DNA of 12,599 bases from a virus (Duplodnaviria; Heunggongvirae; Uroviricota; Caudoviricetes), in the IMG/VR virus record IMGVR_UViG_3300050007_000314, positions 1 to 12,599 of that record, one strand, 5' to 3'. The position numbers and the translations under genes are program-made. The notes under the pieces were generated by a model. It was not told the origin of the DNA, ran no database searches, and saw nothing but the letters and a program-made list of their open reading frames with translations. Shown one piece after another: positions 3,034 to 5,940 of this stretch (position 1 is its first letter; each line of letters opens with the position of its first letter).

Positions 3034-3312
3034 TTACCTCAGATGATCAACCAGCCGCGCTACGTTGCCCCTGACGGCGACCAGCACAGACAAGAAAATA
3101 ATGTTGGCCCCGATAGTGGCCCACGATGAATAAGGGTAGATACCGCACAGATAAGCCAGCGGAACCGCGCTATAGATGACCGTAAGCAGCCACGCTAAGC
3201 GAGATATCCACGGTCGATGTCGGGAATCACCACGGCGGTAAAACATCAGGGTCAGGACTACCCCAGCGCAAAGCAGCGCATTAATTGTTGCCGACGGGTC
3301 ATTTAGTACCAC
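3034..3312 (-). CDS. Holin-like small membrane protein (92 aa), second member of a holin/antiholin-like pair
   Basis: GTG start at 3310-3312 with GGGAGG about 6 nt upstream; 14-nt overlap with the upstream membrane-protein gene. Product has about 3 hydrophobic helices (INALLCAGVVLTLMFY, LAWLLTVIYSAVPLAYLCGIY, IGANIIFLSVLVAV) and a charged C-terminus. Lies immediately upstream of the endolysin. Confidence 0.6.
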   Translation of the reverse strand: MVLNDPSATINALLCAGVVLTLMFYRRGDSRHRPWISRLAWLLTVIYSAVPLAYLCGIYPYSSWATIGANIIFLSVLVAVRGNVARLVDHLR

Positions 3313-3685
3313 CTGAACCTCCCCGGCGCGTTATCAGCGCCACCAGCGAGCCGACATCCTGATTATTCAGGAACGTCAGGATTTTGACGGCTAAAGCAGA
3401 AACGATTACGGCGCCAATGGCATCCAGTGGTTTATCACTGTAGCCGGTCGCCTGAGCCAGCTTTGAACCCACCAGCCCGGAACAAAGGATCCCCGCGATA
3501 TACGACACCAGAAAATATGCCAGCCGACGCGTTGCACTCAGGTCAGCAGCCGTTGCAATGTAAAATACAGCTCCGGCAAATGCACCAAACACCACGCCAT
3601 AATCGGTTCCGGAAAGAAATCCATAGACGCTGGCCCCCGTCAGGACACCACCAGCCAGCCCAGTACCGGAAATCGGATCGGACAT
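3299..3685 (-). CDS. Holin-like membrane protein (128 aa), first gene of the lysis cassette
   Basis: ATG at 3683-3685 with GAGGGGG RBS. Gly/Ala-rich polytopic membrane protein (GLAGGVLTGASVYGFLSG..., VVFGAFAGAVFYIATA..., LAYFLVSYIAGILCSGLVG..., AIGAVIVSALAVKILTF). Function inferred from position; no specific family recognised. Confidence 0.55.
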   Translation of the reverse strand: MSDPISGTGLAGGVLTGASVYGFLSGTDYGVVFGAFAGAVFYIATAADLSATRRLAYFLVSYIAGILCSGLVGSKLAQATGYSDKPLDAIGAVIVSALAVKILTFLNNQDVGSLVALITRRGGSGGTK

Positions 3686-3728
3686 TTAGCCCCCTCTTAA
3701 TTGCTGTAAGTCCTCTCAGAATGAGGGG

Positions 3729-3757
3729 AATAAAAAAGGCCACCGAATGGCAGCCTT
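3729..3757 (-). terminator. Intrinsic terminator on minus strand, downstream of the 79-aa ORF and upstream of the lysis cassette
   Basis: Minus-strand reading AAGGCTGCC-ATTC-GGTGGCCTT: a 9-bp stem with two G-U pairs and a 4-nt loop, followed by TTTTTTATT. Confidence 0.5.
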
Positions 3758-3792
3758 AGTAAATGTTGTGTAGTGCTTTACTGGTAAATGCG

Positions 3793-4032
3793 TTATTGCT
3801 CATGGTCTTTTAAATAGTGATGCCCTTTGGAGGTAATTTCAGTTGCTATCCACGTACCATCACCGGATCTACTCTTAACAGCATTTACTAACCCTGCGTC
3901 AGCAAGATCAGAAATAGCAAAATTTACTGTTTCCTTTGGAATGAGCGGAAGTACTGAAGACTGAACCGCTTCATGTGGACCAAGAGCATTTACGCGACTC
4001 AGAATTTCGAAATGTACAGATGTGATTTTCAT
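3793..4032 (-). CDS. Hypothetical protein (79 aa), moron-like small gene between the Q-like gene and the lysis cassette
   Basis: ATG at 4030-4032 with GGAGG RBS. Flanked by an upstream promoter-like element and terminators on both sides. Local GC looks lower than in neighbouring structural genes. No family recognised (MKITSVHFEILSRVNALGPHEAVQSSVLPLIPKETVNFAISDLADAGLVNAVKSRSGDGTWIATEITSKGHHYLKDHEQ). Confidence 0.5.
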   Translation of the reverse strand: MKITSVHFEILSRVNALGPHEAVQSSVLPLIPKETVNFAISDLADAGLVNAVKSRSGDGTWIATEITSKGHHYLKDHEQ

Positions 4033-4067
4033 AGCACTGCCTCCGGTGGCTTGTTTTGACCAGCGGA

Positions 4068-4076
4068 ATTATAACA
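4068..4076 (-). promoter_or_regulatory. Candidate extended -10 promoter (TGtTATAAT) on minus strand; possible late promoter (PR-prime-like) or the small ORF's own promoter
   Basis: Minus-strand sequence TGTTATAAT (plus ATTATAACA, 4068-4076) matches the extended -10 consensus TGnTATAAT exactly, about 35 nt upstream of the 79-aa ORF start. No good -35 is needed for extended -10 promoters. Confidence 0.35.
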
Positions 4077-4111
4077 TATTGATTTTGACGTAGATTGAGT
4101 GCCAAAAGAGG

Positions 4112-4140
4112 TTAAAGAAAAACCCGCTCACAGGCGGGTT
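4112..4140 (-). terminator. Intrinsic terminator on minus strand downstream of the Q-like gene (tR-prime-like candidate)
   Basis: Minus-strand reading AACCCGC-CTGTGA-GCGGGTT followed by TTTTCTTTAA: a 7-bp GC-rich stem plus U-tract. On the plus strand the same hairpin lacks a comparable T-tract. Confidence 0.55.
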
Positions 4141-4233
4141 TATAGAACTTTGGCAACATATCAAATATGCTTCAAATATGGCTTATTTTGTTGCATTTTG
4201 CAAGCGCGTTTGAAGGAGATAGTGAAATTTACT

Positions 4234-4944
4234 TCACATTTCTGCCACTTTGAGGGCGTCTTCTTCCTCATAGTATTCAAGAGCCATGGCCAGCGCAGAT
4301 TCATCAAGCTGGGTAAAAGCGGCCTTTAACCCAGCCCAGTGCCCTGAATAGACGCGCAACCATGTCGAACGGTCAACGCTAACCATGCGGGCCAACGCTG
4401 CACTAGCATAGTCTTTATAGGTTTCATTATTTCTGGTTGCGGCAATTTCCTGCCCTGCCAGCCATACCAGGCCAATCAGTTTCTTTACTACGCGCTCCTG
4501 AAGGGAGTTATCACCCAGGCATTTCTGATAAGTTTTCCAGACGTATTCACACATCATCACCTGGTGCTTATAGCTAAGGTCAAAACCGTAGCAGTACCGC
4601 AACCAGGCCTGCTGGTATCCACTAAGCGCGGACACTGCCCTACGCCACGGCGCGGACTCAAATTCCGCATCTTTTATCGGCGGCATTGGCCTGCGGCGGC
4701 TGCGTGTTTCCAGTACATACAGTGGCGCGGAAAGCGAGTTAACAAAGCGTGGCCCCTTCTCTCCTTCGAGTTCGACGAGGTGAATTCCACGGCGCGGGGT
4801 GGCATTTTTGTCTGCTGGTGGGTGTTCACTGAAAGCCTCAAGCTGCCCTTTTGTTCCCCCAGAGAGGTCAGGTAGCGCGCGGCGCAATTCTATTCTTACA
4901 AAATTCAGGTCTTGTTGATTCATGCTTCTTTGCGCTCCATACAC
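4234..4944 (-). CDS. Putative late-gene antiterminator (Q-like), 229-236 aa
   Basis: ORF track 4234..4944 (GTG start; alternative ATG at 4921-4923 giving MNQQDLNFVR...). The call is positional: directly upstream of a promoter/terminator interval and the lysis cassette, downstream of a DUF968-like gene, as in many lambdoid prophages. No sequence similarity to lambda Q is claimed. Confidence 0.5.
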   Translation of the reverse strand: MYGAQRSMNQQDLNFVRIELRRALPDLSGGTKGQLEAFSEHPPADKNATPRRGIHLVELEGEKGPRFVNSLSAPLYVLETRSRRRPMPPIKDAEFESAPWRRAVSALSGYQQAWLRYCYGFDLSYKHQVMMCEYVWKTYQKCLGDNSLQERVVKKLIGLVWLAGQEIAATRNNETYKDYASAALARMVSVDRSTWLRVYSGHWAGLKAAFTQLDESALAMALEYYEEEDALKVAEM

Positions 4945-5940
4945 TTAAGCTTTCGCAATTACGCCGATCGACAGCGCCCGATCCATAAAACGCAGTAGCA
5001 GCTCAAGCTGCGTACCATGCTTCTGCTCGAATGCTGGTACATCGGCGTGTAACTCGTCGTGGCACTCTCTGCACAGAGGGATCACGAAGAGGTCATGGGC
5101 TTTTGTTGCTGTACCACCCATACCGTGCCCTACGATATGGTGCGGATCATCTGCTGGCCGTCGGCAACACTCACAGGGTTGTGTTTTAACCCAGCGGGTG
5201 TACGTCTCATTTACCCAGCGGCGACGTTTTGGCCTGAGCATAAAAGATTCCGGGGACTCCGGATCGACGGTTAGCGTCAGTATTGCCTTTTGGGTTTCCA
5301 CATCCAGGCTGTCAGACCGCCGAGCTGGTAACGTATCAATCGACCTGGCTTTTTCCTGCATAATGCTGATGGCCGGCGGCATAGGTACGATGTCACTTTC
5401 CCGGTAAACAGATAATAATGGTTCGTCTGGCAACCGAAGTGCCCGTTGCGCCATTCCTTCGGTGACAGCATCAGCGACACCAGACTGAACCGCCCACCAG
5501 CAAAGCTCGGCTAAAGAGAGGGAGCGCTCTTTGTTGTGGCCAAGCCCAACCAGTACGGTATCAACAATCCATTCGGCAACATTGCTCAGCGCAAGCGCCT
5601 GTAATCTCTCCGTTGACTGACCGCGCAATTTGTTATCGCAGTGCCAGCACACCACTAACGCGCCAGGAGGATGCCATAGTGTTGTTAGCTCGGCATGATG
5701 GTAGTCAGAAACAGGGTACTGACACTTTTTAACGCGCTGACGAAGCCAGTACTCAAGCCCGGCCATACCACCAGCAGCAGTAATTACCCGTTCATCGGTG
5801 AAGAAAGTGTGAAGGCTGGCATCCTCCAGTAGCGGTTGCCGTGCATCGGGGATCCGACCAGACGGAAGCCTGGCCATGTTTTCAGGCTCACGCTCAACGA
5901 GCACACGACCTGCAGGGGTAAGTAAGGCTCTCAATGCCAA
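4945..5940 (-). CDS. DUF968-like phage protein (YdfU-like) with C-terminal Cys/His HNH-like zinc-binding motif
   Basis: 331-aa ORF. C-terminal region PCECCRRPADDPHHIVGHGMGGTATKAHDLFVIPLCRECHDELH resembles an HNH/zinc-ribbon nuclease-like motif. Placement between the Nin-like region and the Q-like gene matches recalled DUF968 genes in lambdoid prophages. Start is uncertain: TTG at 5940 or ATG at 5875-5877. Confidence 0.6.
   Translation of the reverse strand: MALRALLTPAGRVLVEREPENMARLPSGRIPDARQPLLEDASLHTFFTDERVITAAGGMAGLEYWLRQRVKKCQYPVSDYHHAELTTLWHPPGALVVCWHCDNKLRGQSTERLQALALSNVAEWIVDTVLVGLGHNKERSLSLAELCWWAVQSGVADAVTEGMAQRALRLPDEPLLSVYRESDIVPMPPAISIMQEKARSIDTLPARRSDSLDVETQKAILTLTVDPESPESFMLRPKRRRWVNETYTRWVKTQPCECCRRPADDPHHIVGHGMGGTATKAHDLFVIPLCRECHDELHADVPAFEQKHGTQLELLLRFMDRALSIGVIAKA

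What the first reader, a model, noticed from the sequence alone, without database searches (positions are those of the whole stretch)
3729..4233. Late-control interval between the Q-like gene and the holin: promoter, two terminators, and a small moron-like ORF in the slot that carries stx in Shiga-toxin phages
Seen in sequence: downstream of the Q-like gene, on the minus strand, there is a strong hairpin terminator with a U-tract (4112-4140), a perfect extended -10 element TGTTATAAT (4068-4076), a 79-aa ORF with a GGAGG RBS (4032-3793), and a second hairpin terminator with a U-tract (3729-3757) before the first holin-like gene. Established knowledge: lambdoid late promoters are constitutive and stop at a nearby terminator unless Q modifies RNA polymerase; the Q-to-S interval is a classic site for accessory cargo such as stx. 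Inference: lysis and packaging genes here need antitermination through both terminators, and the 79-aa ORF is a cargo gene in the stx-equivalent position.
Basis: partly seen in the sequence, partly recalled or inferred. Interest (0 to 1): 0.55.

Follow-up and report, generated by a model that had tools for sequence, protein, structure and literature searches.

The report
Phage late switch plus small passenger gene
This is the ordinary late-gene on/off switch of a lambda-like phage (phage-82 type), followed by a small self-contained passenger gene for a winged-helix protein that, unexpectedly, sits in this same spot behind all three known families of Q antiterminators.

Summary
Both hairpins are the top-ranked terminator-like sites in the window.

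The reading needs one correction. TGTTATAAT is not the late promoter. The late promoter PR' lies upstream of the first terminator: TTGCAA, 17 nt, CATATT, predicted +1 at A4168. It is followed by an extended -10-like pause element (TGaTATGTT), GCC at +15-17 and a U at +25. That is the published phage 82 layout, and the Q protein belongs to the Q82 family (PF06323). Terminator 1 is therefore tR'.

TGTTATAAT belongs to a 31-bp block that travels with the 79-aa ORF. Block, ORF and terminator 2 form a low-GC, independently transcribed moron.

The ORF is a real gene (dN/dS 0.2-0.35). It folds as a minimal MarR-type winged helix (pLDDT 91.5).

In 45 of 49 related viral loci a full-length antiterminator gene lies directly upstream of a homologue. 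In the other four the held or surviving sequence lacks one, which includes a truncated Q. The antiterminators are Q82-, Qλ- or Q21-like, and at least six holin types follow. The order is always terminator, extended -10, ORF, terminator.

The protein's function is unknown. My best guess is a prophage-expressed DNA-binding regulator. The switch itself is ordinary; only the fixed position of the small gene is mildly new.

The parts
4234..4923 (-). Q antiterminator gene of the Q82 family, 229 aa from the ATG at 4923. The open frame extends upstream to a GTG at 4944.
   Evidence: PF06323, E = 1.1e-36, 127 bits against a cut-off of 25. phrog_304, 7e-72. RefSeq annotates the 229-aa form in relatives. 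PF06323 is the Q82 family according to PMC9388147.
4175..4203 (-). Predicted late promoter PR'. -35 TTGCAA at 4203-4198, 17-nt spacer at 4197-4181 (putative Q-binding element, TGCAAAA/AACAAAAT), -10 CATATT at 4180-4175.
   Evidence: Read from the sequence. The hexamers and most of the spacer are invariant in 7 Q82-type phages whose Q proteins are only 54-63% identical. The Q-binding element lies between -35 and -10 in phage 82 (PMC4914094). The match is 8 of 12 to consensus, below the scanning tool's threshold. No transcription start has been mapped.
4144..4168 (-). Initial transcribed region. Predicted +1 at A4168 (uncertain by about 2 nt). Sigma70-dependent pause element TGaTATGTT at 4163-4155 (+6 to +14). 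GCC at 4154-4152 (+15-17). AT-rich +18-25 ending in U at 4144 (+25).
   Evidence: With +1 at A4168 the positions coincide with those published for phage 82 pR': an extended -10-like element, GCC at +15-17, an AT-rich +18-25 stretch and U at +25 (PMC5001585). The element is invariant in alignment A2. The 9-nt repeat CATATTTGA occurs twice.
4112..4141 (-). Terminator 1, equivalent to tR' of the Q cassette. It would end a PR' transcript of about 54 nt when Q is absent.
   Evidence: Across 7 relatives 98% of cells are paired, with two compensatory pairs, both from 705R4. Relatives with a different cargo diverge immediately after its U-tract.
4068..4098 (-). Promoter block of the cargo unit, TCAATCTACGTCAAAATCAATATGTTATAAT. 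The extended -10 TGTTATAAT is at 4076-4068. There is no -35 match. Predicted start is near 4061.
   Evidence: Two or fewer substitutions separate cassettes whose ORFs differ at dS 0.6-2.0 and whose 5' UTRs are unrelated. All 16 viral contigs with the block also carry the ORF. The Klebsiella-type homologues have a different upstream sequence but keep an extended -10 (TGGTAAAAT or TGTTAAAAT) at the same distance from the ATG.
3793..4044 (-). GGAGG ribosome-binding site (4044-4040) and the 79-aa ORF (4032-3793), encoding a minimal MarR-type winged-helix protein.
   Evidence: dN/dS 0.20-0.35 against 12 homologues. PF10711/DUF2513 scores 29.2 bits, just under the 29.6 cut-off. phrog_32916, 3e-22. 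AlphaFold2 pLDDT 91.5, pTM 0.82. Foldseek finds MarR-family structures at TM 0.62-0.68. A PDB profile search finds 3f3x, E = 1.4e-3.
3729..3757 (-). Terminator 2. It ends the cargo transcript and is the second barrier for late transcription.
   Evidence: The hairpin GGCTGCC-N4-GGYRGCC follows the ORF in every close homologue. Changes are one-sided and keep pairing (G-U to G-C, U-G to U-A). The Klebsiella-type group has unrelated terminators with a UUCG loop at the same place.
3299..3685 (-). First holin gene (Phage_holin_8), the first lysis gene and a target of Q-dependent read-through.
   Evidence: PF16931, 6.8e-34. phrog_198, holin.

Best explanation
The interval holds two nested transcription units.

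Unit 1 is a canonical phage-82-type late switch:
- RNA polymerase starts constitutively at PR' (TTGCAA, 17 nt, CATATT).
- It pauses through sigma70 at TGaTATGTT-GCC, around +25.
- Without Q it terminates at terminator 1 (tR'), giving an RNA of about 54 nt.
- When Q is made it binds in the promoter spacer and loads onto the paused polymerase. It then carries the polymerase through terminator 1, across the inserted gene, through terminator 2 and into the holins, endolysin, spanins and terminase.

Unit 2 is an autonomous moron placed between tR' and the holin. It consists of an extended -10 promoter that needs no -35 element, a GGAGG site, a 79-aa MarR-like winged-helix protein, and terminator 2.

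Because terminators insulate unit 2 on both sides, it can be expressed independently of Q, including in the lysogen.

The protein's role is inferred, not shown. I think it most likely acts as a small dimeric DNA-binding regulator. It may bind the conserved 22 bp just upstream of its own -10.
For: Q family: PF06323 at 127 bits. PF06323 is the Q82 family, and the published cassette order is Q, PR', pause element, terminator, late genes (PMC9388147).

Leader: with +1 at A4168, the extended -10-like element, GCC at +15-17, the AT-rich +18-25 stretch and U at +25 match the published 82 pR' positions. The leader is conserved in 7 phages with 54-63% identical Q proteins. The terminator 1 stem is kept by compensatory changes.

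Minimal form: in 705R4 the holin starts about 25 nt after tR' with no insert.

Cassette limits: E. coli elppa4 shares Q, leader, terminator 1, terminator 2 and the holin, but has an unrelated 261-aa gene in between.

Composition: cassette GC is 40% and GC3 is 27.5%, against 52-56% GC3 in flanking genes.

Promoter block: nearly invariant, and found with the ORF behind unrelated Q genes and leaders.

Coding: dN/dS 0.2-0.35.

Fold: pLDDT 91.5 and MarR-type matches.

Architecture: terminator, extended -10, ORF, terminator recurs in a 35%-identical subfamily with unrelated non-coding sequence.
Against: - No transcription data exist. PR', its +1, the pause and both promoter activities are predictions.
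- PR' matches only 8 of 12 consensus positions, and the scanning tool did not call it.
- The real phage 82 transcript starts with AAA, whereas this one would start AUAUUU. The match is therefore in layout, not sequence. I could not retrieve the 82 sequence to align it.
- The family is acidic (pI 4.8-6.3). Its recognition helix has no Lys or Arg, and the Klebsiella-phage homologue (L056) and its close relative P0024 have no arginine at all. DNA binding is therefore uncertain.
- The protein lacks the MarR dimerisation helices.
- The upstream block has no clear dyad symmetry.
Confidence: 0.8

Rival explanations
1. TGTTATAAT is the late promoter. The 79-aa ORF is then the first late gene, only terminator 2 is the Q-controlled terminator, and terminator 1 merely ends the early (Q) operon.
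For: It is the best -10 match in the interval. It lies between Q and the lysis genes. Terminator 1 could plausibly end the Q transcript.
Against: - No -10-like pause repeat follows it.
- The block accompanies the ORF behind Qλ-type and Q21-like genes that have their own λ-like leaders (AACGAT-GGG). It is therefore not matched to any one Q.
- Q82-type relatives without the cassette (705R4, elppa4) keep the upstream TTGCAA...TGaTATGTTGCC leader and terminator 1, and lack TGTTATAAT.
Confidence: 0.05
2. The architecture is as in the best explanation, but the winged-helix protein does not bind DNA. It acts by binding a protein, for example as an anti-defence, exclusion or host-factor-binding module that benefits the lysogen or the infecting phage.
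For: Every member but one is acidic. There are no basic residues in the presumed recognition helix, and no wing-tip arginine of the MarR D-x-R type. The family is very narrow: 12 representatives among 1.84 billion. That is typical of fast-evolving accessory genes. Morons often carry such functions (PMC2629481).
Against: Every structural neighbour is a DNA-binding regulator. The recognition-helix motif VNFAISDLA is invariant in the subfamily that shares the invariant promoter block, and both differ in the Klebsiella subfamily. That pattern fits autoregulation. There are no PADLOC hits.
Confidence: 0.3
3. The small gene is part of late-gene control itself. Examples would be a prophage-expressed safeguard that limits leaky read-through into the lysis genes, or a modulator of Q-loaded polymerase. 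That role would explain why it always sits just after tR'.
For: In 45 of 49 related loci a full-length antiterminator gene lies directly upstream, and no locus shows the gene anywhere else. The antiterminators come from three unrelated Q families and at least six holin types follow. The architecture persists at about 35% identity.
Against: - Many Q82-type phages work without it (705R4, Flotzy, Eeyore, elppa4).
- One ancestral insertion, followed by exchange of flanks at the terminator hairpins, also explains the fixed position. L041 is a hybrid joined at tR'.
- The gene does not co-vary with Q type.
Confidence: 0.15
4. TGTTATAAT acts mainly as a second sigma70-dependent pause site for polymerases coming from PR', rather than as a promoter.
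For: A consensus extended -10 on the non-template strand about 93 nt from the PR' start would trap polymerase that still carries sigma. Phage 82 Q can engage polymerase paused about 100 nt downstream (PMC4914094).
Against: Its distance is fixed relative to the ORF's ATG (-37 to -46), not relative to PR', in four different leader contexts. No Q-binding element lies next to it. Without Q, few polymerases pass terminator 1.
Confidence: 0.05

Closest known systems
Phage 82 late-control cassette (Q82, 82 pR', promoter-proximal sigma70-dependent pause at +25, nearby terminator)
   Same: Q protein family (PF06323). Order Q, promoter, pause element, terminator. Extended -10-like pause element followed by GCC at +15-17, an AT-rich stretch and U at +25. 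A short terminated leader RNA.
   Different: The sequence is not identical. Phage 82 starts its transcript with AAA, this one would start AUAUUU. Q is only a family member, and its identity to 82 Q was not measured. Activity is untested.
stx operons and other cargo between Q/tR' and the holin in Shiga-toxin phages
   Same: The same slot, downstream of tR' and upstream of the holin. The cargo is co-transcribed with late genes once Q acts, and is absent from related phages (stated from established knowledge; PMC8065619 is listed).
   Different: The product is a 79-aa winged-helix protein, not a toxin. The unit has its own extended -10 promoter and its own terminator. The gene family keeps this slot across three Q families.
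Morons as defined for HK97, lambda and P22-like phages (promoter, gene and terminator inserted in an operon), including the P22 ant moron with its small repressors Mnt and Arc
   Same: An independently expressed unit, present or absent among collinear relatives, with atypical base composition. In P22 it is a small DNA-binding protein gene inside the late operon that is expressed in the lysogen and can influence late read-through (PMC2629481).
   Different: No sequence or fold relation to Mnt or Arc, which are ribbon-helix-helix proteins. The location is after tR', not before the tailspike gene. There is no antirepressor partner.
MarR-family transcription regulators and DUF2513 (PF10711)
   Same: The winged helix-turn-helix core superposes on MarR, MftR, BpsR and ST1710 (TM 0.62-0.68). 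Profile match to residues 33-107 of 3f3x.
   Different: Half the size. It lacks the N- and C-terminal dimerisation helices. It is acidic, with no basic residues in the recognition helix. It scores just below the DUF2513 cut-off.

Membership tests
Q82-family antiterminator cassette | Protein matches Pfam PF06323 above the curated cut-off | tested here: met
   127 bits against a cut-off of 25, E = 1.1e-36, covering 11-222 of the protein. The assignment of this family to Q82 comes from PMC9388147.
Q82-family antiterminator cassette | Gene lies at the end of the early-right operon, immediately upstream of a promoter, pause element, terminator and late genes | tested here: met
   The order is RusA, ORF6N, DUF968, Q, leader, terminator 1, then holins, endolysin and TerS. 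The leader layout matches the published 82 pR' positions.
Q82-family antiterminator cassette | Sigma70-dependent pause at about +25, and Q-dependent read-through of the terminator | not testable with these tools
   Needs in vitro transcription or reporter assays. Only the sequence elements are seen.
Moron (independent transcription unit inserted in a phage operon) | Present in some and absent from other, otherwise collinear, relatives | tested here: met
   Absent in 705R4. Replaced by an unrelated gene in elppa4.
Moron (independent transcription unit inserted in a phage operon) | Own promoter upstream and own terminator downstream | tested here: inconclusive
   A consensus extended -10 and a hairpin with U-tract are present and conserved across subfamilies. 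Their activity has not been measured.
Moron (independent transcription unit inserted in a phage operon) | Base composition differs from the surrounding genes | tested here: met
   GC 40% and GC3 27.5%, against 52-56% GC3 in Q, DUF968, holin and endolysin.
MarR family / DUF2513 winged-helix proteins | Winged helix-turn-helix fold of the MarR type | tested here: met
   pLDDT 91.5. The top 50 PDB matches are nearly all MarR-type regulators.
MarR family / DUF2513 winged-helix proteins | Sequence match above the curated Pfam cut-off | tested here: not met
   PF10711 scores 29.2 bits against a cut-off of 29.6. There is no PF01047 hit. Some close homologues carry precomputed PF10711 hits.
MarR family / DUF2513 winged-helix proteins | N- and C-terminal helices that form the MarR dimer interface | tested here: not met
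   The 79 aa align only to the core, residues 33-107 of 3f3x. Coverage of the targets is about 0.4.
MarR family / DUF2513 winged-helix proteins | Sequence-specific DNA binding | not testable with these tools
   Acidic pI and no basic residues in the recognition helix raise doubt.

The most novel reading that the evidence does not exclude
The small winged-helix gene is not incidental cargo. It would be a so far unrecognised accessory component of lambdoid late-gene control: expressed from the prophage, and kept directly behind tR' in front of the lysis genes whichever of the three unrelated Q families the phage uses. It could guard against leaky lysis-gene transcription or tune Q-dependent read-through.
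Probability: 0.15. Interest if true: 0.7.

Novelty: new member of a known kind. Interest (0 to 1): 0.33.

Why it matters
The switch itself is textbook. The locus simply gives a well-resolved natural example of the less-studied Q82 type, with the promoter, the pause element and a candidate Q-binding spacer defined by conservation.

The modest new point is the small winged-helix gene family. It is uncharacterised and narrowly distributed, and it carries its own promoter and terminator. It keeps the first position after the Q-dependent terminator across Q82-, Qλ- and Q21-like phages of Citrobacter, E. coli and Klebsiella.

If it regulates late or host genes from the prophage, it would be a new player in a very well-studied circuit. 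If it does not, it is a clean example of a moron whose terminator hairpins also serve as module junctions.

Tried and rejected
- Rfam on the whole window found only a sub-threshold Trp_leader match over the leader and terminator 1 (25 bits against 41, E = 0.18). I treat it as a generic terminator resemblance.
- The sigma70 scan found no -35/-10 promoter in 3200-5200. Both promoters proposed here fall outside its rules.
- PADLOC and NCBIfam gave nothing useful for the ORF. PADLOC had one weak hit at its E-value limit (Csa3, E = 0.0099), and NCBIfam had none.
- Foldseek against viral structures gave only generic winged-helix hits.
- Two genome-contig scans, with A7 and with A4, returned no confirmed loci. 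A mixed alignment was too divergent to search with.
- I tried to obtain the actual phage 82 pR' sequence from papers or supplements and failed. The comparison with 82 therefore rests on published positions only.
- An IHF consensus overlaps the -10, but it is not significant on its own: 81 of 200 shuffles also contain one.
- A hairpin that could sequester the holin ribosome-binding site has z = 0.03 and was rejected.
- A search for a second copy of the 21-bp upstream block in the window found none.
- The literature holds nothing functional on DUF2513.

Full report
**What is there.**
- Terminator 1 has the stem AAACCCGC/GCGGGTTT at 4141-4120 followed by a T-run (-12 kcal/mol, z = -3.05).
- TGTTATAAT is at 4076-4068.
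- GGAGG is at 4044-4040, seven nt before the ATG of a 79-aa ORF (4032-3793).
- Terminator 2 has the stem AAGGCTGCC/GGTGGCCTT at 3757-3736 followed by a T-run (-13.2 kcal/mol, z = -3.54).

The two hairpins rank first and second among all terminator-like sites in the 12.6-kb window. The extended -10 is the only TGNTATAAT in the window. That alone is weak evidence, because 49 of 200 shuffles also contain one.

**Context.** The window is a lambdoid temperate-phage segment. It carries a CI-like repressor on the plus strand. On the minus strand the order is: a replication gene, Dam, RusA, ORF6N, DUF968, Q, the small ORF, two holins, a GH19 endolysin, spanins, HNH and TerS. It is a complete 12,599-nt JGI/IMG contig. 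Identical or near-identical copies of the small protein come from Citrobacter.

**The late promoter is upstream of terminator 1.** The Q protein belongs to Pfam PF06323 (127 bits). Ebright and colleagues identify that family as Q82. They describe the regulatory cassette as Q gene, PR', sigma-dependent pause element, terminator, late genes (PMC9388147).

Between the Q stop codon (4234) and terminator 1 lies TTGCAA (4203-4198), a 17-nt spacer and CATATT (4180-4175). If transcription starts at A4168, the next elements are:
- TGaTATGTT at +6 to +14, an extended -10-like element;
- GCC at +15-17;
- AAAGTTCT at +18-25, ending in U at +25.

These are the positions published for phage 82 pR' (PMC5001585). 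A 9-nt repeat, CATATTTGA, links the -10 to the start region.

This leader is conserved almost base for base in seven phages and prophages whose Q proteins are only 54-63% identical: Eeyore, Flotzy, vB_EcoM-705R4, two E. coli prophages and a Citrobacter prophage, plus the window. The terminator 1 stem is paired in 98% of cells. Two pairs are kept by changes on both sides, both in 705R4.

In phage 82 the Q-binding element lies in the promoter spacer (PMC4914094). Here the spacer carries the invariant motifs TGCAAAA and AACAAAAT, which I mark as the candidate site.

Terminator 1 is therefore tR', and the Q-less product would be an RNA of about 54 nt. All of this is prediction from sequence and conservation. 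I could not retrieve the phage 82 sequence itself. The real 82 transcript begins AAA, so the agreement is in layout rather than sequence.

**TGTTATAAT belongs to the small gene.** Three comparisons define an inserted cassette.
- In 705R4 the holin starts about 25 nt after tR', with nothing in between.
- In E. coli elppa4 the Q gene, leader, terminator 1, terminator 2 and holin match the window. An unrelated AT-rich 261-aa gene fills the gap. Similarity ends right after the terminator 1 U-tract and resumes at the terminator 2 stem.
- In E. coli 1943 and in Citrobacter the same small ORF, with the same upstream block and the same hairpin, precedes different holins.

The 31-bp block TCAATCTACRTCAAAATCAATRTGTTATAAT differs by at most two bases between cassettes whose ORFs have diverged to 50% amino-acid identity (dS 0.6-2.0) and whose 5' UTRs are unrelated. 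All 16 viral contigs that contain the block also contain the ORF. A few variants have TGTTACAAT.

The cassette has 40% GC and 27.5% GC3, against 52-56% GC3 in the flanking genes. Together with terminator 2, this meets the usual definition of a moron (PMC2629481), apart from direct proof of promoter activity.

**The ORF is a real gene for a minimal winged helix.** dN/dS against 12 homologues is 0.20-0.35, and indels are in frame. The protein scores just under the DUF2513 cut-off (29.2 against 29.6 bits). It matches phrog_32916, a family of unknown function.

AlphaFold2 gives pLDDT 91.5 and pTM 0.82, with the topology H-H-H-β-β-H. Foldseek finds MarR-type regulators at TM 0.62-0.68, among them MftR, MarR, BpsR and ST1710. 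A profile search of PDB sequences finds the MarR core of 3f3x, residues 33-107.

The protein lacks the MarR dimerisation helices. The family is acidic (pI 4.8-6.3), and its presumed recognition helix has no basic residues. DNA binding is therefore plausible but not assured.

The family is very small. Only 12 representatives were found among 1.84 billion proteins, and 17 clusters in the 90% identity database, from Citrobacter and E. coli. The E. coli variant occurs in 41 of 5426 complete genomes.

**The gene keeps one position.**
- In 19 of 23 viral loci of the close group a full-length Q gene lies about 200-215 bp upstream of the ORF. That Q is either Q82-type or one of two different Qλ-type (PF03589) genes. 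In the other four loci (L050, L052, L053, L047) the upstream sequence is short or carries no full-length Q. The ORF is followed by one of three holin types, sometimes after a second cargo gene.
- A second subfamily from Klebsiella-type phages is about 35% identical. Its homology is confirmed by hhalign (probability 98.9%, E = 1e-17).
- In 25 of its 26 loci it lies 151 bp after a DUF1133 gene that also scores above cut-off on the Q21 family model PF06530. In the remaining locus it lies after a Qλ-type gene. At least five further downstream gene types follow.
- In all 26 loci the order is again terminator, extended -10 (TGGTAAAAT or TGTTAAAAT, 37-39 nt before the ATG), Shine-Dalgarno site, ORF and terminator. 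The non-coding sequence is unrelated to that of the window.

So the architecture is conserved beyond the sequence. That is the best available evidence that the gene has its own promoter and terminator.

**How it most likely works.**
- In the lysogen, PR' fires constitutively and stops at terminator 1.
- The moron is transcribed from its own extended -10 promoter and stops at terminator 2, so the small protein can be made independently of Q.
- After induction, Q loads at PR' and carries the polymerase through both terminators into the lysis and packaging genes.

The protein's role is inferred. My preferred reading is a small DNA-binding regulator, possibly autoregulating through the 22 conserved bp upstream of its -10. 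In support, the recognition-helix motif and the upstream block are each invariant within a subfamily, and both differ between subfamilies. A protein-binding role is a serious alternative (about 0.3).

The fixed position could reflect a function tied to late control (about 0.15). It could equally reflect one old insertion whose flanks have since been exchanged at the terminator hairpins. L041 is such a hybrid, joining a λ-type leader to 82-type post-terminator sequence at tR'.

**Verdict.** The switch is a new member of a known kind. The position-locked winged-helix moron is a small, testable novelty. Interest is about 0.33.

Noticed in passing
L002 2180-2965 (minus); L003 3480-4274; L004 3769-4263: E. 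coli relatives carry another AT-rich cargo gene in the same tR'-to-holin slot. It is 261-264 aa, with a 164-aa shorter form. It occurs alone or after the winged-helix gene. It has no Pfam, PADLOC or NCBIfam match.
   Followed up: partly
window 4112-4141 and 3729-3757; L041 upstream region: Related loci diverge and re-converge exactly at the two terminator hairpins. L041 joins a λ-type leader to 82-type post-terminator sequence at tR'. The hairpins appear to serve as junctions for module exchange.
   Followed up: partly
window 4072-4084 (minus): AATCAATATGTTA fits the IHF core consensus WATCAANNNNTTR and overlaps the extended -10. It is the only match in the window, but 81 of 200 shuffles also have one. 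It is kept in all cassette variants.
   Followed up: partly
window 3685-3734 (minus): An inverted repeat, UUCCCCUC with GAGGGGGC, could sequester the holin ribosome-binding site. Its folding energy is no better than that of shuffled sequence (z = 0.03).
   Followed up: yes
L056 2272-2850 and loci L057-L081: The DUF1133 (PF06576) proteins at the Q position of Klebsiella-type phages also score above cut-off on the Q21-family model PF06530 (40 bits against 26). This suggests DUF1133 proteins are Q21-like antiterminators.
   Followed up: partly
window 4181-4203 (minus): The PR' spacer contains the repeated motifs TGCAAAA and AACAAAAT, invariant in seven Q82-type leaders. It is a candidate Q82-binding element that could be tested directly.
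   Followed up: no
window 4945-5940 (minus): A DUF968/HNH-like gene immediately precedes Q here and in nearly all related loci, whichever Q family follows it.
   Followed up: no
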